NCBI GenBank assembly: GCA_965225945.1
Contig: CBDDBZ010000025.1
Location: 1 to 64,000, forward strand
Reading direction: 5' to 3'
Length of the DNA stretch: 64,000 nucleotides
Source of the DNA: Alphaproteobacteria bacterium
Lineage (GTDB): Bacteria; Pseudomonadota; Alphaproteobacteria; GCA-2731375
The notes under the pieces were generated by a model. It saw only the letters and a list, made by a program, of their open reading frames with translations, did no database searches and was not told the DNA's origin. Shown piece by piece: positions 13,918-61,841 of this stretch (position 1 is the first letter of the stretch; each line of letters opens with the position of its first letter). Both the position numbers and the translations under genes were made by a program.

Positions 13918-13945
13918 TTGCGCTCTCGTGTGACGGGAGCGGCGC

Positions 13946-14611
13946 GTGGAATATTTTGGGTCGAAGGCGACGAGCGGTCTGTGCCAGGCGCTGATTGCGC
14001 TGATGCCGCCGCACAGCGTTTACATCGAGAGCCACCTGGGGGGCGGTGCGCTGATGAAGCGCAAGCCAACGGGCGTGCGCTCGATCGGCATCGACCGCGA
14101 TGCGCAGGCGCTCGAGGCCTTTGCCTGTGACTACCCGGTCGAGTTGGTGCATGGCTGTGCCCATGCCTTTTTGGCCTCGTTCCCGTTTCTGGGCCCGGAG
14201 CTGGTCTACAGCGATCCCCCCTATCTGCACGCGACCCGCCGTTCGGCACGGCGCTATCGCTTCGACTACGAGGAGGTCGACCATGTCGCGCTCCTGGACC
14301 TGCTCAAGGATCTGCCCTGCCAGGTGATGGTCTCGGGCCATCCCTCGGCGCTCTATGACGAGATGCTGGCGGGCTGGCGCAGTCTGGCGCTGCAGGTGAC
14401 GACCCAGGCCCAGGTGCGGACCGAGGTCGTGTGGTTCAACTTCGCGCCCGACCGGGTGCATTGGGCGAGCTACGCAGGCCGGAACTTCACCGACCGCCAG
14501 CGCATCAAGCGTAAGGCGGCCAACTGGGGCCGGCGTTACAAGGCCTTGCCGGCGGGCGAACGCCTCGCGGTGCTGGCCGCCATGATGGCCGTCGATGCCG
14601 AGGACCCGTGA
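13946..14611 (+). CDS. Compact Dam/D12-class N6-adenine DNA methyltransferase
   Basis: YFGSK, IESHLGGGAL (SAM binding), VYSDPPY (catalytic), VMVSG, RTEVVWFNF. Confidence 0.88.
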   Translation: MEYFGSKATSGLCQALIALMPPHSVYIESHLGGGALMKRKPTGVRSIGIDRDAQALEAFACDYPVELVHGCAHAFLASFPFLGPELVYSDPPYLHATRRSARRYRFDYEEVDHVALLDLLKDLPCQVMVSGHPSALYDEMLAGWRSLALQVTTQAQVRTEVVWFNFAPDRVHWASYAGRNFTDRQRIKRKAANWGRRYKALPAGERLAVLAAMMAVDAEDP

Positions 14612-16146
14612 CGCTGTCGCGCTGGCACGAGGACCTCGCCGCCCATGACGAGGCCTTCGCGTGCCTGCAAGATCTTCTTGACCCCTCATCCTTCGCAATC
14701 ACAGTCGTCAAGGCCTTCCGGGAATGGGGCCAGGGGCTGTTGCGCCTGGCCACGGCGCTCGTCCGGGAGAATGCCGCGCTCGAGCGGGAGAACGCGACCC
14801 TGCGGGACCGCATCGCCGAGCTCGAGCGGAGCGCGGCGCTTGACAGCACCACCAGCAGCAAGCCGCCCGCCAGCGACGGCCTGCGCAAGAAGAGCGGAAC
14901 CCAGAGGCGCACCCGAAGCCAGCGCGGCAAGTCCGGCAGGCCAAGCGGCGGCCAGCCGGGCCACAAGGGAACGACGCTGGCGCGGACCGAGAGCCCGGAC
15001 CATGTTGTGGATCATGACCCCTCCGCCTGTTCGGGCTGCGGCGCACCGCTGTCGGACGCCGACCGTCACCGCGCGCCCGTCTGTCGACAGGTCTTCGATG
15101 TGCCCGAGCCACGCCCCCTGGAGGTCACCGAACACCGCGCCCATCGCTGCCTCTGCGGCGCCTGCGCCACCGTGACAGGAGCCGTCTTCCCGGACGGCGT
15201 GACCGCCCCGGTCCAGTACGGGCCACGCATCACCGCCTGGGTGAGCTACCTGCTGTACGCCCAGTTCGTTCCCGAGAAGCGCTTGGCCGAACTCATGAGC
15301 GACCTCTTCGCAGTGTCCATCTCCACAGCCACGATCACCGCCATGGGCCGGCGAATCGCCAGGCGCTTCGAGCCCTTCCTCGCCCATGTCGCAGACGTGA
15401 TCCGCACAGCGGTCCCGGTCAAGCACCTCGACGAAACCGGCCTGCGGATCGCCGCCCGTACCCGCTGGCTCCACGTGCTGTGCACCCCATTCCTGACCGT
15501 CCTGCGCATCGGCGCGGGACGCGGCGATGTCGAAAAGGACCTCGAAGGCATCCTCATCCATGACGATTACGCCGCCTACTTCACCCTCAAGGGCGTGCGC
15601 CACGGCGCCTGCAACGCCCATCACCTGCGCGAACTCCAGGCCCTGATCGACATCGAGAAGGAAGACTGGGCAAAGAGCATGCACCGCCTCCTTGAGCGCG
15701 CACACAGGGCTACCCGCTTCTCCCGTGAGAACGGCCGCGACGTGCCCGCCTCCCTGGTGGCCCGGATCTCGCGGGCCTGGGCCCGCATCCTCGACCACGC
15801 CATCGCCTTCCACGAGGCGCAGCCGCCGCTCCGGACCGGCAAGCGCGGACGAAAGAAACGCCGCATCGGTCATAACCTCGCGCTCCGCCTCCGCAAGCAC
15901 AAGGAGGGATGCCTGCGATTCCTCACCGACCCGCGCACGCCGTTTACGAACAATGAGGCCGAACGTGACCTCCGAATGGCCAAGCTGCGCCAGAAGATCT
16001 CCGGTGGCTTCCGCTCCGAGAGGGGTGCCTACAACTTCGCCAGAATGCGTGCCGTCATCGCCACCGCCCGAAAGCAAGGCTGGAACGTCCTCCAGACCCT
16101 GGTGCATCCCGATCCGATGCAACTAATCCCCCAACTGCGCCTCTGA
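14608..16146 (+). CDS. IS66 transposase (TnpC; single-ORF ISBst12-like organisation)
   Basis: Coiled coil, SSKPPASD, GGQPGHKG, Cys Zn finger, HLDETG, IHDDY, TNNEAERDLR. Confidence 0.93.
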   Translation: MTLSRWHEDLAAHDEAFACLQDLLDPSSFAITVVKAFREWGQGLLRLATALVRENAALERENATLRDRIAELERSAALDSTTSSKPPASDGLRKKSGTQRRTRSQRGKSGRPSGGQPGHKGTTLARTESPDHVVDHDPSACSGCGAPLSDADRHRAPVCRQVFDVPEPRPLEVTEHRAHRCLCGACATVTGAVFPDGVTAPVQYGPRITAWVSYLLYAQFVPEKRLAELMSDLFAVSISTATITAMGRRIARRFEPFLAHVADVIRTAVPVKHLDETGLRIAARTRWLHVLCTPFLTVLRIGAGRGDVEKDLEGILIHDDYAAYFTLKGVRHGACNAHHLRELQALIDIEKEDWAKSMHRLLERAHRATRFSRENGRDVPASLVARISRAWARILDHAIAFHEAQPPLRTGKRGRKKRRIGHNLALRLRKHKEGCLRFLTDPRTPFTNNEAERDLRMAKLRQKISGGFRSERGAYNFARMRAVIATARKQGWNVLQTLVHPDPMQLIPQLRL

Positions 16147-16613: not shown

Positions 16614-17691
16614 CGTCCCTATCTGGTTAAAGCAGGATGGGCTCCGAATGTTCTTGATATGTTCTCCATAGAGGTGTAGGCTGATCGCATCGGCTGGAGC
16701 TTTTGGAGGACTATTCGATGAGCGGGATATTGGAGTTCCTCGAACGCCATGGATCGGAGGCGGACTGCATCGAGGCGCTGGCTCGGCTGCGCTGGCCGCA
16801 AGGCTACGTCTGCGCGCGTTGCGGCGAGAGGCGGAACTACCAATTGAAGACGCGGCCGCGGGTCTTCGAATGCGCCGGTTGCGGCCATCAGGAATCGGTG
16901 ACCGCGGGCACGGTCTTCCACCGCACCCGCACACCGTTGCGCAAATGGTTCCTGGCGGCGTGGTGGATGGGGCGCGACAAGCGCGGGGTCTCGGCGCTGT
17001 TTCTGTCGCGAGAGTTGAGCCTGCGCTACGACACCGCCTGGCTGATGGCCCACAAGCTGCGCCATGCCCTGACGGAGCGCCCGGAGTTCCCGCTGGAGGG
17101 CTTGGTCGAGGTCGACGAGAGCTATTACGGCGGGCGGGGCAAGCCGGAGAGCCGGGGGCGCGGGCTTTCCAACCCGAACAAGAGCCTGTTGGTGATGGCG
17201 GTCGAGAAGTGGCCGGTCGGGTCGGGCAAGGGCATCAAGGGGAGCGGCTTCGCCGCCGGCGCCGCGCGGCTCGCCATCCTGCCCGAGGCCACCGCCCGTG
17301 AGTTGGGCGACTTCGTGCGCGCCTCGGTGAAGCCGGGAAGCCGCCTCGACAGCGACGCTTTCAAGAGTTACGCCAAGCTTGGCGATACTTATCGCCACCA
17401 GCCCGTCGTTCAAGGCCAAGGCAAGAACGCCGAGCAGCTCATGCCGGTCGTCCATGTCCTGTTTTCCAACGTGAAGACGTGGCTCAACGGAACCTACCAC
17501 GGGGTGAGCGCCAAGCATTTGCCGCGCTACGTCCGGGAATGGAACTACCGCTTCAACCGGCGCAAACGCATCTTCGACCTTGCCGATTTCGTGTTGCACC
17601 GCGCCATGACCCGACCGACCATCACCTAAAGGGAACTGGTCGACGGTATACAATCGCAGGGAGCGCTGCCTGCCTTAACCGGATAGGGACG
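16614..17691 (+). mobile_element. IS1595-family element (transposase about 16717-17629)
   Basis: IR CGTCCCTATCYGGTTAARGCAGG, 8-bp TSD TTATCGAT; Zn ribbon, VEVDESY, YVREWNYRFNRR. Confidence 0.93.
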
Positions 17692-19363: not shown

Positions 19364-20902
19364 TCAGAGGCGCAGTTGGGGGATTAGTTGCATCGGATCG
19401 GGATGCACCAGGGTCTGGAGGACGTTCCAGCCTTGCTTTCGGGCGGTGGCGATGACGGCACGCATTCTGGCGAAGTTGTAGGCACCCCTCTCGGAGCGGA
19501 AGCCACCGGAGATCTTCTGGCGCAGCTTGGCCATTCGGAGGTCACGTTCGGCCTCATTGTTCGTAAACGGCGTGCGCGGGTCGGTGAGGAATCGCAGGCA
19601 TCCCTCCTTGTGCTTGCGGAGGCGGAGCGCGAGGTTATGACCGATGCGGCGTTTCTTTCGTCCGCGCTTGCCGGTCCGGAGCGGCGGCTGCGCCTCGTGG
19701 AAGGCGATGGCGTGGTCGAGGATGCGGGCCCAGGCCCGCGAGATCCGGGCCACCAGGGAGGCGGGCACGTCGCGGCCGTTCTCACGGGAGAAGCGGGTAG
19801 CCCTGTGTGCGCGCTCAAGGAGGCGGTGCATGCTCTTTGCCCAGTCTTCCTTCTCGATGTCGATCAGGGCCTGGAGTTCGCGCAGGTGATGGGCGTTGCA
19901 GGCGCCGTGGCGCACGCCCTTGAGGGTGAAGTAGGCGGCGTAATCGTCATGGATGAGGATGCCTTCGAGGTCCTTTTCGACATCGCCGCGTCCCGCGCCG
20001 ATGCGCAGGACGGTCAGGAATGGGGTGCACAGCACGTGGAGCCAGCGGGTACGGGCGGCGATCCGCAGGCCGGTTTCGTCGAGGTGCTTGACCGGGACCG
20101 CTGTGCGGATCACGTCTGCGACATGGGCGAGGAAGGGCTCGAAGCGCCTGGCGATTCGCCGGCCCATGGCGGTGATCGTGGCTGTGGAGATGGACACTGC
20201 GAAGAGGTCGCTCATGAGTTCGGCCAAGCGCTTCTCGGGAACGAACTGGGCGTACAGCAGGTAGCTCACCCAGGCGGTGATGCGTGGCCCGTACTGGACC
20301 GGGGCGGTCACGCCGTCCGGGAAGACGGCTCCTGTCACGGTGGCGCAGGCGCCGCAGAGGCAGCGATGGGCGCGGTGTTCGGTGACCTCCAGGGGGCGTG
20401 GCTCGGGCACATCGAAGACCTGTCGACAGACGGGCGCGCGGTGACGGTCGGCGTCCGACAGCGGTGCGCCGCAGCCCGAACAGGCGGAGGGGTCATGATC
20501 CACAACATGGTCCGGGCTCTCGGTCCGCGCCAGCGTCGTTCCCTTGTGGCCCGGCTGGCCGCCGCTTGGCCTGCCGGACTTGCCGCGCTGGCTTCGGGTG
20601 CGCCTCTGGGTTCCGCTCTTCTTGCGCAGGCCGTCGCTGGCGGGCGGCTTGCTGCTGGTGGTGCTGTCAAGCGCCGCGCTCCGCTCGAGCTCGGCGATGC
20701 GGTCCCGCAGGGTCGCGTTCTCCCGCTCGAGCGCGGCATTCTCCCGGACGAGCGCCGTGGCCAGGCGCAACAGCCCCTGGCCCCATTCCCGGAAGGCCTT
20801 GACGACTGTGATTGCGAAGGATGAGGGGTCAAGAAGATCTTGCAGGCACGCGAAGGCCTCGTCATGGGCGGCGAGGTCCTCGTGCCAGCGCGACAGCGTC
20901 AC
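19364..20902 (-). CDS. IS66 transposase, copy 2
   Basis: Translation appears identical to 14608-16146. Confidence 0.93.
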   Translation of the reverse strand: MTLSRWHEDLAAHDEAFACLQDLLDPSSFAITVVKAFREWGQGLLRLATALVRENAALERENATLRDRIAELERSAALDSTTSSKPPASDGLRKKSGTQRRTRSQRGKSGRPSGGQPGHKGTTLARTESPDHVVDHDPSACSGCGAPLSDADRHRAPVCRQVFDVPEPRPLEVTEHRAHRCLCGACATVTGAVFPDGVTAPVQYGPRITAWVSYLLYAQFVPEKRLAELMSDLFAVSISTATITAMGRRIARRFEPFLAHVADVIRTAVPVKHLDETGLRIAARTRWLHVLCTPFLTVLRIGAGRGDVEKDLEGILIHDDYAAYFTLKGVRHGACNAHHLRELQALIDIEKEDWAKSMHRLLERAHRATRFSRENGRDVPASLVARISRAWARILDHAIAFHEAQPPLRTGKRGRKKRRIGHNLALRLRKHKEGCLRFLTDPRTPFTNNEAERDLRMAKLRQKISGGFRSERGAYNFARMRAVIATARKQGWNVLQTLVHPDPMQLIPQLRL

Positions 20903-21564
20903 GGGTCCTCGGCATCGACGGCCATCATGGCGGCCAGCACCGCGAGGCGTTCGCCCGCCGGCAAGGCCTTGTAACGCCGGCCCCAGTTGGCCGCCTTACG
21001 CTTGATGCGCTGGCGGTCGGTGAAGTTCCGGCCTGCGTAGCTCGCCCAATGCACCCGGTCGGGCGCGAAGTTGAACCACACGACCTCGGTCCGCACCTGG
21101 GCCTGGGTCGTCACCTGCAGCGCCAGACTGCGCCAGCCCGCCAGCATCTCGTCATAGAGCGCCGAGGGATGGCCCGAGACCATCACCTGGCAGGGCAGAT
21201 CCTTGAGCAGGTCCAGGAGCGCGACATGGTCGACCTCCTCGTAGTCGAAGCGATAGCGCCGTGCCGAACGGCGGGTCGCGTGCAGATAGGGGGGATCGCT
21301 GTAGACCAGCTCCGGGCCCAGAAACGGGAACGAGGCCAAAAAGGCATGGGCACAGCCATGCACCAACTCGACCGGGTAGTCACAGGCAAAGGCCTCGAGC
21401 GCCTGCGCATCGCGGTCGATGCCGATCGAGCGCACGCCCGTTGGCTTGCGCTTCATCAGCGCACCGCCCCCCAGGTGGCTCTCGATGTAAACGCTGTGCG
21501 GCGGCATCAGCGCAATCAGCGCCTGGCACAGACCGCTCGTCGCCTTCGACCCAAAATATTCCAC
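20899..21564 (-). CDS. Dam/D12-class adenine methyltransferase, copy 2
   Basis: Translation appears identical to 13946-14611. Confidence 0.88.
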   Translation of the reverse strand: MEYFGSKATSGLCQALIALMPPHSVYIESHLGGGALMKRKPTGVRSIGIDRDAQALEAFACDYPVELVHGCAHAFLASFPFLGPELVYSDPPYLHATRRSARRYRFDYEEVDHVALLDLLKDLPCQVMVSGHPSALYDEMLAGWRSLALQVTTQAQVRTEVVWFNFAPDRVHWASYAGRNFTDRQRIKRKAANWGRRYKALPAGERLAVLAAMMAVDAEDP

Positions 21565-22575
21565 GCGCCGCTCCCGTCACACGAGAGCGCAACCCATAGA
21601 CGCCCGATTCTATGGAGTCAAGAGACGATCAACGACGCGGCGGCGGAAACCCGGCCCCGGCGACCACCTACATCATCCTCTCGCGGTCAGGAGCGGGGTA
21701 CCTGGGTAGTTACAAGCAAAGGCGTCTTGTAATCCAGCGACTCCCCCGTGTAGGAAACAAAGACAGCCGGAATGTAGAGCGTCTTGCCATTCTCTGTTTC
21801 CAAAATGAAAACAGGCGAAGATGGGTCCCAGATAGAGTAGCTTCTCGCCATATGCGTAGACCGAAGCCCGCCGGATGGAAAACTAGACCCATCCGGTTCC
21901 TGCTTTACGAGTTGCGAAGCTGAAAGTCTTTCGATGCTCTTGGCTTCCAGGTCGATACTCGGCTTGAAAAATGCATCATGCTTTTCGGCAGTCGACCCCG
22001 TAAGCGGATGAAACCAATGTGTATAGTGCGTAACGCCTTTTCTCATCGCCCACATGATCAGGGCTTCGGCAATATTCTCGGCGGTCGAAAAATCCATTTG
22101 CTTTTGTTTCAAAATCACACCTTTAATTTTTCGTAGGTGGATTCTGTGACATATTCTTTGAGGTTGTTCAGGGAGAAGATGTTCTCACCGAATATCTCGG
22201 AAAACTTATGCCCCTCAGGTTTTGCCTGATCGTATCCACTGTTGAGATGGGTCAATTCATCGCCGGTTTGTTGCAGGTCTGACATAAGGTCGAACTCCTC
22301 CCTCGATATGCTTTATCCGAGCGCGCCAGCCTACGAATTACAACCCAGACGCCCGGCGTGATCGATTCGTCTTACCCGAGATTTCCATTGGCTCTCGTTC
22401 TAACCTTGCCTATCCGGTTATCACCCACACCCACTATATGTAGTGTGTCTCCTTGGACTGCAGGCAAGGGCCGGCGCAGGCGCATTGAGGAGGCGATCCG
22501 GCTAATTCTTGATTGTTCTGAAAACCGAACCGGAGTTTAATTCACGTCACGTACTTAACATCGGGGGACGAAACG

Positions 22576-32284: not shown

Positions 32285-33539
32285 CGGGCGGCGGATCGCC
32301 CAACGTCTCGATCCCGCTCGTCATCGACCTCTCCCAGGAAGAAAAGGGGTCATTCTACTTCCTGATTACGCACTTTACTCAGCCGGATTGATGTGGTACA
32401 AATCGTGAACAAATGGCGGTTTTTCTGGAGGTTCACAATGCCACGCAACAAGGTTCAGTTCCAGAAGGGGCTCAGCGAGCCGCGTTTTCGTGAGTTGTAC
32501 GGTACCGAGGAGCAGTGTCGCGAGGCCCTTTTCCGCTGGCGCTGGCCGGAGGGGTTCGCCTGCCCCCGATGTGGCGCCACGCGCCATTGCGAGATCGCCG
32601 GGCGAAAACTCTACCAATGCGCCGCCTGCCGTCATCAAGTCTCGCTGACCGCCGGCACGCTCTTCCACGCGACCAAGCTGGCGCTGACCCTGTGGTTCTC
32701 GGCGATCTATCACATGACCCAATCGAAGAAAGGGATCTCCTCCCTCGAACTCGGCCGCCGGCTCGGCGTCACCCAGACCACGGCCTGGAAGATCAAGCAG
32801 AAACTGATGCAGTCCATGCTCGAGCGCGATGCCAAATTGCCGCTCACCGGGCGGGTGGAGATGGACGATGCCTACCTCGGCGGCCGGCTTTCCGGGGCCA
32901 AGCGCGGCCGAGGCGCGCCGGGCAAGACGCCGTTCGTCGCCGCCGTCCAGACCACGGCGGAGGGCCAGCCCGTGCGCATCAAGCTCCGCCGCGTCAAGGG
33001 CTTCCGCAAGAGCGAGATCGCCAAGATGGCCAAGCGCGACCTGAGCCCTGGGGCGACCGTTTTCAGCGACGGGCTCAACTGCTTCACCGCCGTCACCACG
33101 CGGGGCTGTGCGCATCATCCGATATCCACCGGCTCCGGACCCGGGGCCGTCGCCGGGCCCGCCTTCAAATGGGTCAACACGACCCTCGGCAACCTCAAAA
33201 ACACCCTGCGCGGTACCTACCATGCGATCCGACCCAAGCATGTGCCGCGCTACCTGGCGGCGTTCCAGTACCGATACAACCGCCGCTACCGGCTCGCCGA
33301 CATGATCCGAAGCCCTCGGCCGCGATGCCCTGCATACGCCGCCCATGCCATATCGGCTCCTGAAGTTGGCTGAGGTTAGTGCGTAATCAGGTTCTACTTT
33401 ATCGGTCGCTGCGGTGGGCCTCTTCGTGGCTCGTGTCGCCAGCGCCAGCGGTGGCGAAAAGTAGAATGACCCCTTTTTCCCCTTTTCGGGCGGCGGATCG
33501 CCCAACGTCTCGATCCCGCTCGTCATCGACCTCTCCCAG
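32285..33539. repeat. 53-bp perfect direct repeats (32285-32337, 33487-33539) flanking a 110-bp palindromic element split by IS1595
   Basis: Direct sequence identity; inner IR AAAAGGGGTCATTCTACTTT / AAAGTAGAATGACCCCTTTT. Confidence 0.88.
32361..33391 (+). mobile_element. IS1595-family element (transposase 32438-33373)
   Basis: IR CCTGATTACGCACT, 8-bp TSD TTCTACTT; VEMDDAY, FSDG, YRYNRR; probable +1 frameshift near the C-terminus. Confidence 0.93.
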
Positions 33540-48820: not shown

Positions 48821-49845
48821 GGCTCAATTCGTGAATTGTATGCGTCACCTTGTTACGGCGGCGGCGAGGCAGGCTCGGTCATTGGCGCCGGGGGCGAGGC
48901 CGACGAGGTGGAACCAGCTCAGGTAGTTGTCCAGATAGCGGGTGGCGATGCCGCGGCGGGGACGCAGGAAGTCCTTCAACCGGCTGTGGCGGCTGTTCAC
49001 CGTCTGCACATGCAGATCGCCCCGAACCCGTTCCCCCATCGAGCGGTTGAGTGCTTCGTGGCTCACCCCGAGCGCGGCGGCGCACGGTGGGTAGCTCGCG
49101 CCGCCGTCGGAGACCAGCAGGGCGTCCTTCGCGACCACCGGGTCGAGGGCAGCCGTGAGCGCCGCCGCATCGACCCTGGGCAGCACCGCGCTGACCGTCG
49201 TTCCGCTCCGGTCCGCCGCCATGAGAACCGGTACCTGCTCGCGCGAGAGGCCGCGCTTCTTCGCCTTGCCGCCCCGCCGCCGTGCCTTGCGCCCCAGCCC
49301 GCGCGCGCCCTTCCGGCTCTCCAGGACGTAGGTCTCGTCCGCTTCCACGATCCCCTTGAGCACCTCCGAATCGCTCCGCGCCGCCGCCAGAAACCGGTGA
49401 CGCCAGCGGAACGCCGTGCTCACCGCCACGTCGCAGCGCGCCGCCGAGGCCTTCACCGTCTCCCCCTTCGCCAGCGACGCCCCGAACGACAGCCAGCGTT
49501 CCTTGTGGTGCAAGCCCGACAGCGGCGTACCGCTCAGCGCGTTGAAGGTCCTGCCGCAGCCCTTGCACTGGTAGCGCCGCAGACCCCGCGCCATACCGCG
49601 CGAAACCGCCCCTTCGCTCGCGCAGTGCGGACAGCGCCGGGCCTCGTCCACACCAAGCTCGATCGCGGCCTTCGATGCCTCGCCCTCGCTCCGGCCCGAC
49701 AGCACCGCGAGCGCCTCGCGCCGCTGCGCGCGCGTCAGCCCGCGCGCCGCCGAAAGCCACACCTGGAAACCCTTGCCGTCCATAACCCAACCTCCTGACG
49801 TTCCAGGCACTCTATCACTAATGCATACAATTCACGAATTGAGCC
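48821..49845 (-). mobile_element. IS1595-family element (transposase about 48845-49783)
   Basis: IR GGCTCAATTCGTGAATTGTATGC, 8-bp TSD AAACGGAA; CPHC/CKGC, VEADETY, VSDG. Confidence 0.93.
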
Positions 49846-55921: not shown

Positions 55922-57323
55922 GCGCGCCCGTCTCCCGAGGTTTCGCCCGAGGCAAGTTAGCGCACGGAGCATACTGACTCCACCGACCCCGCGTGAAATG
56001 GGTTCGGTTGACCGCACCATCGCGGAACGGAAAAATGCCTTGCCCCGTACAGGAGAGGGACCAACCCGCCCATGACGTCACGCAGCCTTCGCGGCCAGGT
56101 GGCGATCGCCGGCATCGGCGAGACGACCTATTACAAGCACGGCCGCTCGCCCGACCCGGAGTTCAAGCTGGCCCTCATGGCGATCCTGAGGGCGGCCGAG
56201 GACGCCGGGATCGATGCGCGCGAGATCGACGGCTTCGCCTCTTATAGCAACGACCGGAACGAGCCCTCGCGGATCGCCGCGGCGCTGGGCATCAAGGAGC
56301 TGCGCTTCGCCAACATGCAGTGGGGCGGCGGCGGTGGCGGCGGAGCGGCCGCCGTCGGCAACGCGGCCGCCGCCGTGGCGACGGGGCTGGCAAACTGCGT
56401 CGTGGTCTTCCGCGCGCTGGCCCAAGGCCAGTTCGCCCGCTTCGGCCAGGGCTCGCAAAGCCCCACCATCTCCGGCGACAAGGCATACGAAGCGCCCCAT
56501 GGCATGATGTCGCCGGGCCAGCGCTACGCCATGAAGGTGATGCGGTTTTTCGAGGAGCACGCCATTGCGCCCTCGGCGCTGCGCGGCATCGCGCTCGCCT
56601 CCTACCACCACGCGCAATCGAATCCCCGCGCGGTGATGCACGGCCGGCCGCTGGACGAGGCGAGCTACGATGCCTCGCGCTGGATCGTCGAACCGTTCCG
56701 CCTCTACGACTGCTGCCAGGAAAACGACGGCGCCGCCGCGCTGATCGTGGTGCCGGCGGAGCGCGCCCGCGACCTGGCCCACCCGCCCTGTTATTTGCTA
56801 AGCGTCGCCGCCGGCTCCGAGCATCGCTGCGCCGCGCCGAGCCACAACGCGCCCAGCTACGCCAGCGCCAGCTTTACCACCGTGGCCCCGCACCTATACG
56901 CGATGGCGGGCCTCGGAGCGAATGTCGGTGGCGATGAAAAACCGCGCTTAGATGGTGATTTCAGCGACATCGGGCATCGTGGCGCTGTAGCTGCGTGGTT
57001 TGCAGGCGGGAGTTGGCTCGGCGCAGCGGTGGGTAAGTAGCCCGCCGCAGCGACCGCCAAGAGTCTGGCGGCGGCGGGCTGCTTATCCACCGCGGGCGGG
57101 CGTCTCGATTCCTGTTTTGGCTGGCTGGCGGCGGCGGTTCCGCGGACCTGACAAGGGGAGCCGCGGGAGTACACTCGGGCCGCTGAGAACGATGCGGCGC
57201 CGGCCCCGTTTGCTTGCTGGCAACGACCGGCACCGCACCCCCCGAGCCATGCAAGGCACGACCCATATGCGCAGTATCGTGCGGGTTTGGGCGTGGGTCC
57301 ACCCCGTTCTCATCGGCTGCGCG

Positions 57324-57764
57324 ATGAAGAACACCGCCCGCCTGTTCAACTGCGCCTCGTGCCATCAACAGGTGGTTCTCTGCCGGCACTGCGACCACGG
57401 CAACATCTACTGTTCACGGAGCTGCAGCGATCGGGTGCGCCGGCGATCGCAGCGCCATGCCGGGCAGCGCTACCAGAACAGCCGGCGGGGCCGTCACAAG
57501 CATGCTGAGCGCCAGCGGCGCTATCGCGAACGCCGGCGGCGCCGGACGCCGGTGAATCGGCGCCGCGGGCAGGAAGTGACGCATCACCCTTTGACCGCCG
57601 CGCGGCGGCGTCCTGTTGTGGTGCGGACGCCGGCAGGGCGTCCCGGAACACGGCCCTTCGGGCACGAGCGGCCCGCCAGGGTCTTCCGCTGCGATCGCTG
57701 CGGCCGGTTCTGCGGGCAGGCGGTCTATCCGGGGCTGCGCCCGACGGGAAAGGGGGTGAGATGA
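57324..57764 (+). CDS. Cys-rich, Arg-rich putative Zn-finger protein
   Basis: CASC, CRHC, CSRSC, C-terminal CDRC; ATGA overlap with istA. Confidence 0.7.
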
Positions 57765-59264
57765 CCATCGACAAGGAGACCCGCGCGGAGATCCTGCGCC
57801 TGTATCACGTCGAGAAGTGGACGGTCGGCACGATCACACGCCAGCTCGGCGTGCATCGCTACACCGTCGAGCGCCTCCTCACCGCGGCCGGCGAGCCCCG
57901 GGACGCGAGGTCGCCCAGGCCGTCGATGATCGATCCATACGTGCCGTTCATCGCCGAGACGCTGGCATCCTGGCCGACGCTGCCCGCCAGCCGGCTCTAC
58001 CAGATGGTGCGCGAACGCGGCTATCCGGGCGGCGGCGACCACTTCCGTCATCTGCTCAGCCACTTCAGGCCCAGGCCCGTGGCCGAGGCCTATCTGCGCC
58101 TCAAGACCCTTCCCGGCGAGCAGGCCCAGGTCGACTGGGGACACTTCGGCAAGGTGACGATCGGCCGCGCGGAGCGCCGCCTGATGGGCTTCGTGATGGT
58201 TCTCAGCTACTCGCGGCGGATCTTCCTGCGCTTCTACCTCGACGCCGGGATGAGCAACTTCCTGCGCGGCCATGTCGAAGCCTCGAGGCGTGGCAGGGCG
58301 TGCCCCGCGAGCTCTGGTACGACAACCTGAAGAGCGTCGTGCTGGAGCGCCGCGGCGCCGCCATCCGGTTCAATCCCCGGATCCTCGACCTCGCCGGCCA
58401 CTACCACTTCCTGCCCAAGCCCGTCGCGGTCGCGCGCGGCAACGAGAAGGGGCGCGTGGAGCGGGCGATTCGCTATGTCCGGACCAGCTTCTTCGCCGCC
58501 CGCCGGTGGCGCGATATCGACGATCTCAACGCCCAGGCCCTGGCCTGGTGCCACGGCATCGCCGCCGACCGCCCCTGGCCCGAAGACCGCTCGATCACCG
58601 TGCGCGAGGCCTTCGAGCGGGAACGCGGCTCTCTCATCGCGCTGCCCGGCGATCCCTTCCCCGACCACGACCGGGTCGAGGTCGCCATCGGCAAGACCCC
58701 CTACGCCCGCTTCGATCTCAACGATTACAGCGTGCCGCACACCCATGTGCGGCGCACCCTCGTCGTGGTCGCGACGCTCGACGAGGTGCGCATCCTCGAC
58801 GGTGTGGACGTCATCGCCAGCCATCCGCGCAGCTTCGACAAGGCGGCCCGCATCGAGAACCCCGAGCACATCGCCGAGCTGGTCAGGCGCAAGAGCCATG
58901 CCCGCCGCCTTCGCGGCCAGGACCGCTGGTCCAGGCCGCGCCCAACAGCGAGCGCCTGCTCGCCGAGGCCGCCCAGCGCGGCGGCTATATAGGCGCCACC
59001 GTCGCCGCCCTGTTGCGCCTCCTCGACGCCTACGGCGCCGCCGAGCTCGAGGCGGCCATCGACGAGGCCCTGAAGCGGGACGTTCCCCATCCCAACGCCG
59101 TGCGCCTGAGCCTGACCCGGCGGCGCGAGCTGCGGCACCAACCCCCGCCCATCCCCGTCGAACTGCCCGGCGATCCGAGAGTGCGCGACATCACTGTCCG
59201 CGATCACGACCTCGTCGGATACGACGGGCTGGCCGGCGAACCCGAGGAGGACAGCGAGCAATGA
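57761..59264 (+). pseudogene. istA: IS21 transposase IstA with two single-base frameshifts (about 58283 and 58926)
   Basis: [28 protein letters not shown] spread over three frames. Confidence 0.88.
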
Positions 59265-60049
59265 ACGATACCCTCATGGGCCGTGCCCGGGCGCTCGGCC
59301 TGCACGGCCTCGCCGCCCACTGGGGCGAGGTCGCCGGGCATGACTGGCCCGCTGCGCTGGTCGCCTGGGAAGAGGAGGAACGGCGAAGCCGCAGCCTCAA
59401 GCGCCGCCTCGCCGACGCCCGCCTCGGACAGTTCAAGCCGCTCGCCGACTTCGACTGGGCATGGCCGCGCCGCTGCGACCGCATGGCCGTCGAGGATCTC
59501 ATGAGCCTCGAGTTCCTCAACGAGGCCGCCAACGTCGTCCTGGTCGGCCCAAACGGCGTCGGCAAGTCGACCATCGCCGCCAATATCGCCCACCGCGCCG
59601 TCCTCGAGGGCCACACCGTGCGCTTCGCCACCGCGGCCAGCATGCTCGGCGAGCTCGCCGCCCTCGACAGCGACACCCTGCTTCAGCGCAGGCTGCGCTT
59701 CTACGCCCGCCAGCACCTGCTGGTGATCGACGAGGTCGGATACCTGTCCTACAGCAACCGCCATGCCGATCTGCTGTTCAACATCGTCTCCAGCCGCAGC
59801 CAGCAGAACTCCACCATAATCACCACCAACCGGCCCTTCGCCGAGTGGGGTGAGGCCTTCCCCAACGCCGCCTGCCTCGTCGCCCTGGTCGACCGCCTCG
59901 TCCACAACGCCGAGATCATCGCCATCGACGCCGAGTCCTGGCGCCGCAAGGAGGCCGAGGAACGCCAGAAGCAGCGCAGCGCCGAGCGCCGCCGGCGGCG
60001 AGCCGGCAAGGCCGGCGCGCAGGACCGCGGGGAACCGCCGCCGGCGTAG
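59261..60049 (+). CDS. istB: IS21 AAA+ ATPase IstB
   Basis: GPNGVGKS, LLVIDEVGYL, ITTN, DRLVH. Confidence 0.93.
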   Translation: MNDTLMGRARALGLHGLAAHWGEVAGHDWPAALVAWEEEERRSRSLKRRLADARLGQFKPLADFDWAWPRRCDRMAVEDLMSLEFLNEAANVVLVGPNGVGKSTIAANIAHRAVLEGHTVRFATAASMLGELAALDSDTLLQRRLRFYARQHLLVIDEVGYLSYSNRHADLLFNIVSSRSQQNSTIITTNRPFAEWGEAFPNAACLVALVDRLVHNAEIIAIDAESWRRKEAEERQKQRSAERRRRRAGKAGAQDRGEPPPA

Positions 60050-60051
60050 CC

Positions 60052-60942
60052 ATGGATGGTCCCCGCCTCTGGGACCGGCGGGTGCGGGCCGAGGCCCTGC
60101 GAGGCTATCCCCTCGAAGACGTCGTCCGCCGCCTCGGCTACCGCCGCGATCCCACCGATGCCGCGCGCTGGAGGCGTCCCGGATCCGTCGTCAGCATCAA
60201 CGGCTTTATGTTCTACGAACATCTGCGCGGCGGGGGCGGAGCGATCGACCTGGTAATCCATGCCTGCCGGTGCACCGTGCCCGAGGCCCTCGGCTTCTTC
60301 TCGGAACTGCCGTGCCGTGACCGGTTCCCGGCCGATCGCCACCCGAAGCCGCCGTGCCCGGACCGCCACTGGCCCGCCATCCAGAGCTACCTCGTCGAGC
60401 AGCGCGGCCTCGCGGATGTGCTCGTCGCCCTGTGCCGCGACCTCGGCTTGCTCTACGCCGACCGCCACGGCAACGCCGTGTTCGTCCGCCGAAACGCGGC
60501 CGGCGAGGCTCTCGGCGCCGAGATCGTCCCTGCCGCGGCGCCACGCCGCCTCGCGCCGACCGGCGCCGCCGCGCGCGGCGGCTTCTGGATGTCGTGGGAA
60601 CCCGACTGGCCGAACTCCGTCATCCTCGCCAAGAACGCAATCGACGCCCTGTCGGTCCTCTCCCTCCACCTCGTCCCGGCCGGGCGCAAGGGATGCGCCG
60701 TGGTCTCAACCGGCGGCGCCACCGCAAGCCTCCCCGAATGGATCGAGGCCTGGAACCCCGGCCGGATCTTCTGCGCCTACGACGCCACCCGCCAGGGCGA
60801 TGACGCCGCGGCACGGCTCATCCGAAACGACAGCAGGGTCGTCCGCCTGCGCCCTGCCCTCGACGGCCTGGACTGGAACGACATGCTCATGCGCGACCGC
60901 GCCGGCGAACCGCTCCAGATCGATGACCGGCCCCTCGACTGA
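60052..60942 (+). CDS. DUF3991/TOPRIM primase-like protein with degenerate catalytic motifs
   Basis: GGGAIDLVIH, YLVEQRGL, LYADRHGNAVF, KNAIDALS, AYDAT, DWND. Confidence 0.75.
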   Translation: MDGPRLWDRRVRAEALRGYPLEDVVRRLGYRRDPTDAARWRRPGSVVSINGFMFYEHLRGGGGAIDLVIHACRCTVPEALGFFSELPCRDRFPADRHPKPPCPDRHWPAIQSYLVEQRGLADVLVALCRDLGLLYADRHGNAVFVRRNAAGEALGAEIVPAAAPRRLAPTGAAARGGFWMSWEPDWPNSVILAKNAIDALSVLSLHLVPAGRKGCAVVSTGGATASLPEWIEAWNPGRIFCAYDATRQGDDAAARLIRNDSRVVRLRPALDGLDWNDMLMRDRAGEPLQIDDRPLD

Positions 60943-61388
60943 ATAGCCACAGCGCGAAACAAAATCAGCCAAGCCCAAAAGCATCCCGTCAGCCAACCGC
61001 CACCGACCGCTCAAAAAGAGCACCATATAAGCGCACCCTGGAACCACCGCTAACAAGCGAAAGACGTCGATGTGGTGCAGTCTTACGAGAACTTCACCGG
61101 CGGCGTGCTGGTGAGCCTGGTCGAGCACGGCTTTTTCGCGCCAGAGGAAGCCGCCGAGTTCCTGACCAAGGAGAACCTGATCGCGCCGTCGGGCCGCCTG
61201 CCGCTCAACACCAGCGGCGGCAATCTGGCCGAATGCTACATGCACGGGCTGGAGCTACAGTTGGAGGCGATCCGTCAGGTCCGGGGCTCCTCCACCGCGC
61301 AGGTGCCCGACGCCGAGGTCTCCATGGTCTGTTCCGGCCCCCTGGTGAGCCCGGTCAGCAGCCTGATCCTGGGCGCGGAGGCGACGCT

Positions 61389-61841
61389 GTGAGACCTGCG
61401 CCGAAGCGCTATCTCCCGGCCGGCCTGCCGATCCCGGTGGCCGAGGCCGACGGCCTCTCGGCGCCTTATTGGCAGGGCCTGCGCGAGGAAGTGATCCGGG
61501 TGCAGAAGTGCGGCGGCTGCGGCGTGTTGCAATGGGGCCCGGAATGGATCTGCCATCGTTGCCATTGCTTCGATCTCGGTTGGACCGAGGTCCAGGGGCG
61601 GGGGCGGATCTACAGCTGGGAGCGCTCGTGGCATCCGGTGCACCCCGCGCTGAAGGACCACGGACCCTATATCGTCGTGCTGGTGGAACTGACGGGGACG
61701 GGAGGGCTTCGCATGATCGGCAACCTGCTGGGCGATCCCAGGCAAAATGTGCGCGTCGGCTCGCAAGTCGAGGCCGCCTTCGAGCACCATGGCGACGCCG
61801 AGCCACCCCATAGCCTGCTGCAATGGCGCCATGCCGAGTGA
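61389..61841 (+). CDS. DUF35 Zn-ribbon/OB-fold protein (ChsH2-like)
   Basis: CGGC...CHRC, GRGRIYSW, PYIVVLVEL; overlaps the thiolase stop. Confidence 0.88.
   Translation: MRPAPKRYLPAGLPIPVAEADGLSAPYWQGLREEVIRVQKCGGCGVLQWGPEWICHRCHCFDLGWTEVQGRGRIYSWERSWHPVHPALKDHGPYIVVLVELTGTGGLRMIGNLLGDPRQNVRVGSQVEAAFEHHGDAEPPHSLLQWRHAE

What the first reader, a model, noticed from the sequence alone, without database searches (positions are those of the whole stretch)
56923..61055. Four-gene IS21 element: Zn-finger, istA, istB and a degenerate TOPRIM primase-like gene
Seen: TGT...ACA ends and the 6-bp TSD AGCGAA enclose four tightly coupled ORFs (two ATGA overlaps, one 2-bp gap), and excision restores the thiolase frame GLGAKDVDVV. 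Known: IS21 elements normally encode only IstA and IstB, IstB is DnaA/DnaC-like, and TOPRIM catalysis needs a Glu and a DxD motif. Here the expected ExxIDALS reads KNAIDALS and DxD reads AYDAT. Inference: a primase-fold protein repurposed as a DNA-binding or targeting factor, or an aid to replicative transposition; possibly an undescribed IS21 subgroup.
Basis: partly seen in the sequence, partly recalled or inferred. Interest (0 to 1): 0.75.

Follow-up and report, generated by a model that had tools for sequence, protein, structure and literature searches.

The report
IS21 element carrying a dead primase
This is a decayed copy of a widespread, still-jumping four-gene IS21-type insertion sequence that always carries a small zinc-finger gene and a DnaG-like primase gene whose catalytic residues have been lost, which hints that primase-like proteins are built-in helpers of this kind of transposon.

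Summary
The element is real. It is a 4,133-bp IS21-family insertion (56923-61055) with TGT...ACA ends and a 6-bp duplication (AGCGAA), and it splits a thiolase-like gene.

Two 1-nt deletions break it into three frames, so this copy is not autonomous. Intact 501-aa sister copies exist in public data.

The order zn-istA-istB-top is not a one-off capture.
- 33 of 57 related loci carry it, in 11 distinct sequence versions.
- One genome holds 21 copies. Of these, 16 differ by 2 nt or less, and target duplications are visible.

"Top" has a DnaG/T7-primase-like fold (DUF3991 + TOPRIM). Every member of the four-gene clade has lost the TOPRIM Glu and reads DAT instead of DxD. In the wider family, 107 of 129 representatives keep both. 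The gene still evolves under purifying selection (omega 0.53, against about 0.30 for zn, istA and istB).

Motif-intact relatives sit beside other DDE-transposase + ATPase gene pairs, including two other IS21 lineages.

Best reading: a transposon-borne primase turned pseudo-enzyme and kept as a non-catalytic accessory factor. The function is inferred, not shown. I found no description in print.

The parts
56072..56922 (+). 5' part of the interrupted thiolase-like gene; the last 6 bases (56917-56922, AGCGAA) are the left copy of the target-site duplication
   Evidence: Read. The joined frame is open after simulated excision. This part has no Pfam match of its own.
56923..56962 (+). Left terminal inverted repeat (starts TGT)
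   Evidence: 23 of 40 positions match the reverse complement of the right end. The same TGT..GGTG..GCGCTTA pattern lies at the ends of L009, L029, L007 and L025.
57026..57094 (+). Long hairpin in the left non-coding region
   Evidence: 26-nt arms, 88% complementary. 6 of 29 predicted pairs keep pairing through changes on both sides, in 6 versions. Two further versions, L007 and L009, were left out because they do not align there.
57148..57175 (+). Sigma-70-like promoter site, CTGACA-16-TACACT
   Evidence: 1 site found against 0.0 expected in shuffles. The columns are conserved across 8 versions. A consensus match only.
57166..57323 (+). Nearly invariant leader upstream of the zinc-finger ORF
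   Evidence: Alignments. It is more conserved than the coding regions. The upstream reading frame differs between versions, so it is not coding in a conserved frame.
57324..57764 (+). zn: 146-aa Cys-rich, very basic protein (six N-terminal Cys, a basic helical hairpin, and a C-terminal CxxCxxxC)
   Evidence: Conserved in 11 versions. 218 homologues were found. No Pfam or NCBIfam family. AF2 model has pLDDT 70.8. No PDB fold match, best E = 2.9. Omega 0.30.
57761..59264 (+). istA, IS21 DDE transposase; a pseudogene here, with 1-nt deletions near 58283 and 58927
59261..60049 (+). istB, AAA+ helper ATPase; intact, 262 aa
   Evidence: PF01695 at 1e-53. NF038214 scores 205.2 bits against a cut-off of 200.
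60052..60942 (+). top: 296-aa DnaG-like protein (DUF3991 + TOPRIM) that lacks the TOPRIM Glu (Lys instead) and reads DAT in place of DxD
   Evidence: Pfam: DUF3991 at 6.5e-9 and Toprim_2 at 1.1e-4. AF2 model has pLDDT 79.2. Foldseek best hits are DnaG catalytic cores and T7 gp4 primase. Motifs.
61016..61055 (+). Right terminal inverted repeat (ends ACA)
   Evidence: The same ...CGCTAACA end occurs in 21 copies in another genome.
61056..61392 (+). Right copy of the target-site duplication (61056-61061) and the 3' part of the thiolase-like gene
   Evidence: PF22691 Thiolase_C_1 at 1.1e-20..

Best explanation
SHOWN.
- The locus is one copy of a conserved, recently mobile four-gene lineage of the IS21 family: zn, istA, istB, top, inside TGT...ACA inverted repeats, making 5-7 bp target duplications.
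- This copy inserted into a thiolase-like gene. It then lost its transposase to two 1-nt deletions, so it can move only if an intact sister copy supplies IstA.
- Top has the fold of the DnaG/T7-gp4 primase catalytic core. It belongs to a clade of stand-alone primase-like proteins that sit next to DDE-transposase + ATPase gene pairs.
- On the stem of the four-gene clade it lost two of the acidic metal ligands of the TOPRIM site (Glu, and the second Asp of DxD). It has since been kept under purifying selection, roughly 1.8 times weaker than on the other three genes.

INFERRED.
- The ancestral protein was a transposon-borne primase. It would have served the DNA synthesis that IS21-type transposition needs, either the copy-out of a circular intermediate or repair and restart at the strand-transfer joints.
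- In this lineage it no longer makes primers. It survives as a pseudo-enzyme that still binds single-stranded DNA and/or a partner (the IstA-IstB complex or host replication proteins), marking or stabilising the intermediate for the host replisome.
- Zn is a separate, older accessory of this IS21 subgroup. It is most likely a nucleic-acid-binding regulator or end-binding factor.
For: Element and mobility:
- The ends, the duplication and the restored target frame are read.
- The same gene order is found in 33 of 57 related loci, in 11 distinct versions.
- One genome has 21 copies. 16 of them differ by 2 nt or less over 4,049 bp. All 21 have intact IstA (501 aa), IstB (264 aa) and Top (290 aa).
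- Of the 16 copies whose left junction printed in register, 11 show identical 5-bp flanks.
- Target duplications of 6-7 bp are seen for three further copies: L029, L007 and L008.

Defective copy.

Fold:
- AF2 gives pLDDT 79.2 and pTM 0.78.
- Foldseek finds 2au3 and 1dde (DnaG) at E about 2e-5, and T7 gp4 (1nui) with TM 0.40/0.49.

Motif loss:
- All members of the window clade lack Glu and read DAT. L038-L042, L044, L048, L052, L055 and L057 keep E and DAD.
- In the wider family, 107 of 129 scorable representatives keep E+D+D and 14 lack both Glu and the second Asp.
- The window clade is monophyletic (19 leaves, support 1.0). It is nested among motif-intact proteins.

Constraint:
- Pooled omega for Top is 0.53 (0.45-0.64). 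It is 0.30 for Zn, 0.29 for IstA and 0.30 for IstB.
- The upper bound is below 1 in all 4 independent pairs.

Recurrent link to transposons:
- L055 has IstB-Top in the same order.
- L044 and L045 are a 3.5-kb IS21 with its own target duplications and a convergent, motif-intact Top.
- L049 and L051 have an IS481/Mu-like DDE gene, an AAA_22 ATPase gene and Top, with touching stops and starts.
- The L040 group has rve + AAA_25 + Top.

IS21 is listed among families with circular intermediates that presumably use copy-out-paste-in (passages of bioRxiv 10.1101/2023.06.07.543989).
Against: - No experiment and no binding evidence ties Top to transposition.
- Four acidic positions of the TOPRIM site remain (the D of xAxDALS, the first D of DAT, GD, and DWND), so residual catalysis is not excluded.
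- Omega is clearly higher than for the core genes, which would also fit a dispensable cargo gene under weak selection.
- NG86 dS values are low (0.2-0.8) in this 70% G+C DNA, so absolute omega values are probably inflated or distorted. Only the comparison between genes is safe.
- Close IS21 relatives do without Top, so it is not a general requirement of the family.
- Taxon labels of short MAG contigs may be binning artefacts, so the host range is uncertain.
Confidence: 0.5

Rival explanations
1. Top is still an active primase. The remaining acidic residues, or a metal bound differently, suffice, and the element primes its own copy-out or gap-filling synthesis.
For: The fold and the DUF3991 and TOPRIM domains are kept. 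Four acidic positions are conserved. The gene is under purifying selection. The closest motif-intact relatives sit in the same position in other transposons.
Against: The position of the TOPRIM Glu is not merely changed but variable within the clade (K, N, D, G, A, T). That is what an abandoned catalytic site looks like. 107 of 129 family representatives keep E+D+D. From memory, not tested here: substitutions of the matching DnaG residues abolish or cripple primer synthesis. A long stem branch leads to the clade.
Confidence: 0.13
2. Top (and perhaps Zn) is cargo with no role in transposition. For example it could be a decoy or dominant-negative primase-like protein that interferes with replication or conjugative priming of competing plasmids or phages. 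It would be kept because it benefits the host or the element indirectly.
For: The wider family consists mostly of primase domains of MobV relaxases and of large plasmid proteins, at about 30% identity. Catalytically dead copies of enzymes can act as inhibitors (general knowledge). Omega is higher than for the core genes. IS21 relatives lack the gene.
Against: The gene has kept the same place and strand, directly after istB, through roughly 20% nucleotide divergence of the whole element. Relatives occur next to at least three other kinds of DDE + ATPase pairs. That pattern is hard to explain for a random cargo gene. No defence family was tested; PADLOC was not run.
Confidence: 0.2
3. Top is a negative regulator. 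The inactive primase competes with the host primase or replisome at the intermediate, or with IstB, and so limits copy number.
For: It would explain retention of the fold without catalysis, and the tight linkage to istB.
Against: One genome holds at least 21 near-identical copies, all with intact top, so any brake is weak. There is no direct evidence.
Confidence: 0.12
4. A one-off capture of a plasmid primase gene that is decaying neutrally.
For: This particular copy is decaying, since istA is frameshifted.
Against: 33 of 57 loci, in 11 versions, share the order. Top is open in 10 of 10 complete diverged versions at dN up to 0.32. Omega has an upper bound below 1 in 4 of 4 independent pairs. 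The copies are recent and multiple.
Confidence: 0.02

Closest known systems
IS21 family insertion sequences (IS21 and relatives; IstA DDE transposase + IstB AAA+ helper)
   Same: IstA matches the NCBIfam IS21 transposase model over positions 1-293, across two pieces. IstB passes the IS21 helper ATPase cut-off. The ends are TGT...ACA inverted repeats with a short target duplication, and the starts and stops overlap.
   Different: The element is 4.1 kb with four genes. From memory of ISfinder descriptions, which were not consulted here, typical members are about 2-2.6 kb with istA and istB only. The IS21 members tabulated in the Paracoccus mobilome paper are 2,469 and 2,503 bp (PMC3281130, passages seen).
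IS21 copies on Aromatoleum aromaticum EbN1 plasmid 1 (NC_006823) and Methylotuvimicrobium alcaliphilum plasmid (NC_016108)
   Same: IstA and IstB are 60-67% identical in the Aromatoleum copy. A Zn-like ORF lies directly upstream of istA: 47% identity over 60 aa at E = 5e-11 in Aromatoleum, and a tblastn match at 4e-5 in Methylotuvimicrobium.
   Different: A 63-70 aa hypothetical ORF follows istB instead of Top. Top has no match there (best E = 1.6). The Zn-like ORF is not in the gene tables shown.
DnaG-type primase catalytic core (E. coli, Aquifex, M. tuberculosis DnaG; T7 gp4 primase; Twinkle N-terminal part)
   Same: The predicted fold matches: 20 PDB chains at E <= 1e-3, all of the listed ones being primases of this type. 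Top has an N-terminal beta-rich domain, the DUF3991 subdomain and TOPRIM.
   Different: There is no sequence-level match to any PDB chain (0 hits at E <= 1). There is no invariant Cys in the first 240 residues, so no CHC2 zinc site. There is no C-terminal helicase-binding domain, since the protein ends after TOPRIM. The Glu and the second Asp of DxD are lost.
DUF3991-TOPRIM domains fused to MobV relaxases or large conjugative-plasmid proteins, and stand-alone 'DUF3991 and TOPRIM domain-containing proteins' of Pseudomonas and Xanthomonas plasmids
   Same: The domain pair is the same, at 27-32% identity over about 90% of Top. They belong to the same HMM family, which has 3,419 representatives at E <= 1e-3.
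   Different: They keep ESxIDAxS and DxD. They are plasmid-transfer or replication proteins, not parts of an insertion sequence.
IEE, the IS-excision enhancer (a PrimPol-helicase)
   Same: It is a primase-type protein whose action is tied to the replicative copy-out step of IS families that make circles, a list that includes IS21 (bioRxiv 10.1101/2023.06.07.543989, passages seen).
   Different: It has the AEP/PrimPol fold, not TOPRIM. It is catalytically active. It is not encoded inside the IS. It promotes excision.

Membership tests
IS21 family (insertion sequence) | IstA: DDE transposase with an N-terminal HTH, an rve-type core and a Mu-transposase-C-like domain | tested here: met
   NF033546 covers positions 1-170 (120.9 bits) and 174-293 (108.2 bits) on two pieces. 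HTH_23 and Mu-transpos_C_2 match in Pfam. The gene is frameshifted in this copy but whole in the relatives.
IS21 family (insertion sequence) | IstB: AAA+ helper ATPase encoded directly downstream of istA | tested here: met
   PF01695 at 1e-53. NF038214 scores 205.2 bits against a cut-off of 200. ATGA overlap with istA.
IS21 family (insertion sequence) | Terminal inverted repeats ending 5'-TG...CA-3', and a short direct target duplication | tested here: met
   TGT...ACA ends, 23 of 40 matching positions, 6-bp AGCGAA on both sides. Duplications of 5-7 bp in related copies. The expected range of 4-8 bp is recalled, not checked.
IS21 family (insertion sequence) | Only two genes (istA, istB) in about 2-2.6 kb | tested here: not met
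   4,133 bp with four genes. This is why I call it a variant rather than a plain member. The typical size is recalled, plus two examples in PMC3281130.
TOPRIM / DnaG-type primase | TOPRIM fold together with the primase N-terminal subdomain | tested here: met
   Toprim_2 scores 22.9 bits against a cut-off of 22.1. DUF3991 scores 36.5 bits against 24.5. Foldseek finds DnaG cores at E about 2e-5.
TOPRIM / DnaG-type primase | Conserved catalytic Glu (ExxxD motif) | tested here: not met
   Lys in the window. K, N, D, G, A or T across the clade. Glu is present in the motif-intact relatives.
TOPRIM / DnaG-type primase | DxD metal-binding motif | tested here: not met
   DAT in every member of the clade, with NAT, QAT, EAT or GAT in a few. 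DAD or DxD in 107 of 129 representatives.
TOPRIM / DnaG-type primase | Zinc-binding domain with CHC2 ligands | tested here: not met
   No invariant Cys before residue 241 in the 28-sequence alignment. The model shows a beta-rich N-terminal domain.
TOPRIM / DnaG-type primase | Primer synthesis on ssDNA | not testable with these tools
   Needs a biochemical assay.
MYND / zinc-ribbon type zinc fingers (for Zn) | Match to a curated zinc-finger family | tested here: not met
   No Pfam or NCBIfam hit for the window protein. zf-MYND appears in 10 of 30 homologues, with a best E of only 0.051. No PDB sequence or fold match. The conserved Cys pattern is seen in the alignment; metal binding is untested.

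The most novel reading that the evidence does not exclude
A clade of stand-alone DnaG-like (DUF3991-TOPRIM) proteins is a built-in third component of several families of two-protein transposons (a DDE transposase plus an ATPase). These include at least three IS21 lineages, IS481/Mu-like DDE + AAA_22 elements and rve + AAA_25 elements. Such elements would then bring their own priming function for the replicative step of transposition. In the four-gene IS21 lineage the primase has become a pseudo-enzyme that is still needed, which would separate a structural or recruiting role from primer synthesis.
Probability: 0.3. Interest if true: 0.8.

Novelty: new variant of a known kind. Interest (0 to 1): 0.62.

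Why it matters
IS21-type elements are textbook two-gene insertion sequences. How the DNA synthesis step of their transposition is started has not been worked out. A lineage that always carries a primase-fold gene, with relatives that carry catalytically intact versions beside other transposase + ATPase pairs, gives a direct handle on that question.

Three experiments follow:
- delete the gene;
- compare active and dead versions;
- look for partners.

It is also a clean natural example of an enzyme turned pseudo-enzyme inside a selfish element. In addition, it means that annotation pipelines which expect two genes will misdraw the borders of these 4-kb elements. They appear to be abundant in some genomes, with 21 copies in one.

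Tried and rejected
- Co-fold of IstB with Top (alignments A3 and A1): no verdict, score 0.00 against a mark of 0.32. It says nothing either way. Only this pair was tried; Top with IstA or Zn was not.
- Profile search of Top against PDB sequences: 0 hits at E <= 1.
- Zn: no Pfam or NCBIfam family. PDB profile hits are chance level only, at E = 0.15-0.21. There is no fold match, best E = 2.9. The Atlas neighbours are all unnamed clusters.
- Rfam on 56800-61200: one sub-threshold hairpin match (mir-B6, 33.5 bits against a gathering score of 89), taken as chance.
- Megablast of the whole element against plasmids found only two istA/istB matches at 73-76% identity.
- Programmed frameshifting in istA was considered and rejected. 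Relatives read one continuous frame, and I see no slippery heptamer at either break (reading).
- An upstream ATG (a 190-aa form of Zn, as in P0121) was rejected as the conserved start, because the upstream frame differs between versions.
- Literature: searches for IS21 + toprim + istB (0 papers), DUF3991 (2, unrelated), 'IS21 family' + passenger (6, unrelated), IS21 + primase + 'insertion sequence' + 'additional ORF' (33 papers held at least 3 of the 4 terms; 15 were listed, and I opened two), istA + istB + 'zinc finger' (2, unrelated), toprim + TniB (1, unrelated) and 'transposon-encoded primase' (0). None of the papers I opened or saw listed describes this arrangement.
- ISfinder and TnCentral could not be consulted.

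Full report
**1. The observation**

The sequence at 56917-56925 reads AGCGAA|TGT. At 61053-61061 it reads ACA|AGCGAA. Removing 56923-61061 leaves one open frame of 393 codons with a single terminal stop, reading GLGAKDVDVV across the joint. The 3' part of that frame matches Thiolase_C_1 at 1.1e-20.

The two ends are imperfect inverted repeats. 23 of 40 positions match ungapped, in the blocks TGT and GCGCTTAnATGGTG.

The identities also hold:
- IstB matches PF01695 at 1e-53 and passes the NCBIfam helper-ATPase cut-off.
- The last ORF matches DUF3991 (6.5e-9) and Toprim_2 (1.1e-4).
- The first ORF matches no family.

istA is not one ORF. It runs in frame 2 to about 58282, in frame 1 from 58285 to 58926, and in frame 0 from 58929 to 59264. 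The IS21 transposase model is split between the pieces at model positions 170/174.

In 10 of 10 complete relatives IstA is a single frame of 501-502 aa. A 501-aa database protein, P0385 (a cluster of 79 sequences on 11 contigs), matches the three pieces at residues 1-174, 176-389 and 391-501 with one mismatch. Another protein, P0384 (405 aa), reads the first two pieces in one frame and then diverges, so it carries only the second shift.

The breaks are therefore two successive 1-nt deletions. The first separates the first catalytic Asp region from the rest of the DDE core. 30 of 32 other long frames submitted from the window (RpoD, RecD2, ABC transporters and others) gave Pfam matches, and none looked split across frames, so the assembly is not generally error-ridden. 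A read-level check was not possible. This copy is a non-autonomous, decaying copy. It is the only copy in the window.

**2. What it is**

Top has 498 homologues in the word-indexed protein search, many at 60-99% identity. A scan of one genome per species found 57 loci (146 pattern matches, 57 confirmed).

tblastn with the window's proteins shows the order Zn, IstA, IstB, Top on one strand in 33 of the 57 loci. These fall into 11 distinct sequence versions: L001-L004, L007/L008, the L009 group, L017, L025, L029, L032 and L046. The count includes three copies hit by secondary insertions in zn or top (L027, L037, L047) and one cut by a contig end (L046). Three more loci (L006, L031, L035) are cut inside istA by a contig end but continue IstB-Top.

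The whole element aligns at 79-83% nucleotide identity, non-coding leader included.

One genome (OZ219785-OZ219788) gave 21 loci with the standard layout:
- 16 differ by 2 nt or less over the 4,049-bp element.
- All 21 have IstA of 501 aa, IstB of 264 aa and Top of 290 aa.
- Zn is whole in 18 of 21.

Similarity between those copies stops exactly at TGTAGGTGACGG... on the left and ...CGTCGCTAACA on the right. Of the 16 copies whose left junction printed in register, 11 have identical 5-bp flanks on both sides. The other 5 do not in that register.

Other versions show duplications of 6 bp (L029, CCTGAG), 7 bp (L007, ATCATGC) and 6 bp (L008, AGGCCG). L025 shows none.

The four genes therefore move as one unit, and recently. 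The taxon labels of the contigs are varied (Alphaproteobacteria, Pseudomonadales, Dehalococcoidia, Gemmatimonadota, Defluviicoccus). Several are contigs of 4-6 kb, whose binning I would not trust.

**3. The primase-like gene**

The AlphaFold model (28-sequence alignment, pLDDT 79.2, pTM 0.78) finds DnaG catalytic cores first in the PDB (2au3, 1dde, 5w33, 1eqn; E from 2e-5 to 1e-4). T7 gp4 primase and Twinkle follow. No PDB chain is found by sequence profile.

The protein ends right after TOPRIM, so it has no helicase-binding domain. The 28-sequence alignment has no invariant Cys before residue 241, so there is no CHC2 zinc site.

Motifs. Every member of the window's clade has K, N, D, G, A or T where TOPRIM has its Glu. 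Every member has T where DxD has its second Asp. Relatives at 40-50% identity read ESA[IV]DA[LI]S and DAD.

A full HMM search of 1.84 billion representatives found 3,419 family members at E <= 1e-3. Of the best 150, 129 could be scored at all three positions:
- 107 have E+D+D.
- 14 lack both the Glu and the second Asp.
- 8 lack one position.

Many family members are C-terminal domains of proteins of 440-2,400 aa. In plasmids these are annotated as MobV relaxases or plasmid recombination enzymes, at about 30% identity.

In a FastTree of 131 sequences, the motif-less proteins other than the divergent P0277 form one clade (19 leaves, support 1.0) on a long stem. That clade is nested in a 48-leaf clade (support 0.996) of stand-alone proteins that otherwise keep the motifs, most of them 260-310 aa. 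The tree was midpoint-rooted and includes only sequences with at least 240 aligned positions or at least 260 residues. In the printed tree, the context label of L005, L006, L030, L031 and L035 is a default. Their loci are partial or rearranged.

Selection. NG86 omega was pooled over four phylogenetically separate pairs (three for IstA, since the window's copy is broken), with bootstrap intervals:

| Gene | Omega | 95% interval |
|---|---|---|
| Top | 0.53 | 0.45-0.64 |
| Zn | 0.30 | 0.22-0.41 |
| IstA | 0.29 | 0.25-0.34 |
| IstB | 0.30 | 0.24-0.38 |

Every Top pair has an upper bound below 1. dS is low (0.2-0.8) for the amount of amino-acid change, as expected with strong G+C bias at third positions. 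I therefore rely on the comparison between genes of the same element. Top is constrained, but about 1.8 times less than its neighbours.

**4. Where the relatives sit**

All loci with motif-intact Top whose surroundings could be read lie beside transposase genes.
- L055: IstB (NF038214, 200.9 bits) then Top, in the same order as here. The contig ends inside istA.
- L044 and L045: a 3,520-bp repeat unit, 99.9% identical between two sites of one genome. It has TGT...ACA ends and its own duplications (CGCTG; CCAGGTC). It holds an IS21 IstA (316.8 bits) and IstB on one strand and Top on the other. L039 has the same layout in another genome.
- L049 and L051: a DDE transposase (rve, rve_3, Mu-transpos_C; nearest NCBIfam model IS481, below its cut-off), then an AAA_22 ATPase, then Top, with touching stops and starts.
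- L040, with L038, L041 and L048 sharing its upstream DNA and L042 nearly identical to L041: an rve protein, an AAA_25 + GntR-like protein, then Top. The conserved block ends right after Top.
- L057 lies between IS66-like and IS1595-like genes. L052 and L054 are too short to say.

The ends of the L049, L051 and L040 units were not defined, so I have not shown that those are mobile units.

**5. The zinc-finger gene**

Zn is conserved in all 11 versions. It has 218 homologues down to about 40% identity, none with a Pfam domain.

The alignment shows six N-terminal Cys (C-x2-C-x6-C-x2-C-x6-C-x3-C in the window copy). A basic stretch [20 protein letters not shown] follows, then KVTHH, then a C-terminal C-x2-C-x3-C. 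The model has two small beta hairpins, a confident helical hairpin (residues 32-73, pLDDT 91-95), a disordered linker and a small C-terminal sheet. It has no PDB neighbour.

Zn is older than Top in this lineage. The nearest plasmid-borne IS21, on Aromatoleum EbN1 plasmid 1 (IstA/IstB 60-67% identical), has a Zn-like ORF ending at the istA start. A 70-aa ORF follows istB and there is no Top. A Methylotuvimicrobium plasmid shows the same layout.

**6. How it most likely works**

Shown: the element, its mobility as a four-gene unit, the defect of this copy, the primase fold, the clade-wide loss of two catalytic ligands, the constraint, and the repeated neighbourhood with DDE + ATPase pairs.

Inferred: IS21 is listed among IS families that make circular intermediates and presumably use copy-out-paste-in (bioRxiv 10.1101/2023.06.07.543989, passages seen). 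That pathway needs DNA synthesis started at the transposon. A transposon-borne primase would serve that step, or the repair and restart at the strand-transfer joints.

In the four-gene lineage the Glu position is free to vary, which is the mark of an abandoned active site. Yet the element has multiplied to 21 near-identical copies with that state. Primer synthesis by Top is therefore probably not needed. I think it is kept for binding, either to single-stranded DNA at the intermediate or to a partner among IstA, IstB and the host replication proteins.

I put about 0.5 on this package. The rivals are residual catalysis (0.13), unrelated cargo such as a decoy against plasmid primases (0.2), a brake on transposition (0.12) and neutral decay (0.02).

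Four acidic positions of the site remain, which keeps the first rival alive. That substitutions of the matching DnaG residues abolish activity is recalled from the literature and was not checked here.

**7. Novelty**

The seven literature searches turned up no paper, among those listed or opened, that links IS21, or any transposon of the DDE + ATPase kind, with a TOPRIM or DUF3991 protein or with this zinc-finger ORF. The Paracoccus mobilome paper only notes that multi-ORF structures are typical of IS21 and IS66 and that the roles of the extra ORFs are unknown (PMC3281130, passages seen). ISfinder could not be consulted, so an entry there cannot be excluded.

I file the element as a new variant of a known kind. 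It is an IS21-family member by its transposition genes and its ends, and it fails the family's usual two-gene, 2-2.6 kb format.

**8. Verdict**

Interest 0.62.

Noticed in passing
window 57166-57323 (and the matching stretch of L001, L002, L004, L007, L009, L025, L029, L032, L046): The roughly 160 nt before the zn start codon are nearly invariant across versions whose coding regions differ by about 20%. They follow a conserved promoter-like site (57148-57175). The consensus fold pairs TCATCG with CGATGA, which includes the zn start codon. No covariation was seen (0 of 40 pairs), because the sequence hardly varies.
   Followed up: partly
window 57026-57094: A stem of about 23 bp lies about 100 nt inside the left end, upstream of the promoter-like site. 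In 6 versions, 6 of 29 pairs are kept through changes on both sides. L007 and L009 have different sequences there that also look self-complementary by eye. It may act as a barrier to read-through transcription or as a binding structure.
   Followed up: partly
window 13934-16143 (+) and 19367-21576 (-), with 16685-17626 between them: Two copies of an IS66-family element lie in inverted orientation. Both transposase frames gave the same Pfam scores, and the paired 225-aa and 543-aa frames have identical lengths and composition. They flank an IS1595-type transposase gene, which may form a composite unit. Further IS1595-like transposase genes lie at 32366-33370 and 48848-49831. The region is IS-rich.
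   Followed up: no
L040:2333-6588 (also L038, L041, L042, L048): A conserved three-gene block: an rve-type DDE protein, an AAA_25 (RepA/DnaB-like) + GntR-like protein, and a motif-intact Top. The block ends right after Top. In L040 it is followed by a 1,100-aa helicase-nuclease gene. It could be a small integrating element with its own helicase-primase pair. Its ends were not defined.
   Followed up: partly
L049:3728-6840 and L051:3934-6828: An IS481/Mu-like DDE transposase gene, an AAA_22 ATPase gene and Top with touching stops and starts, preceded by a 221-243 aa ORF of no family. L049 has Gly at the TOPRIM Glu position but keeps DAD.
   Followed up: partly
L027, L047, L024, L037 (copies in OZ219785-OZ219788): Several copies of the four-gene element in the 21-copy genome are themselves interrupted by 1.7-1.9 kb insertions, in zn (L027, L047) or in top (L037), or carry a rearranged left part (L024). 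The inserted DNA was not examined.
   Followed up: no
proteins P0001, P0004: Near-identical Top sequences (99%) occur in public data fused to an IstB domain (387 aa) and to a reverse-transcriptase domain (PF00078, 515 aa). This suggests other damaged or intron-invaded copies of the same element. No genomic context was available.
   Followed up: no
window 61233-61841: The ORF downstream of the interrupted thiolase-like gene overlaps its end and carries a CxxC...CxxC stretch. By eye it looks like the OB-fold/zinc-ribbon partner often paired with such thiolase-like genes. Not tested.
   Followed up: no
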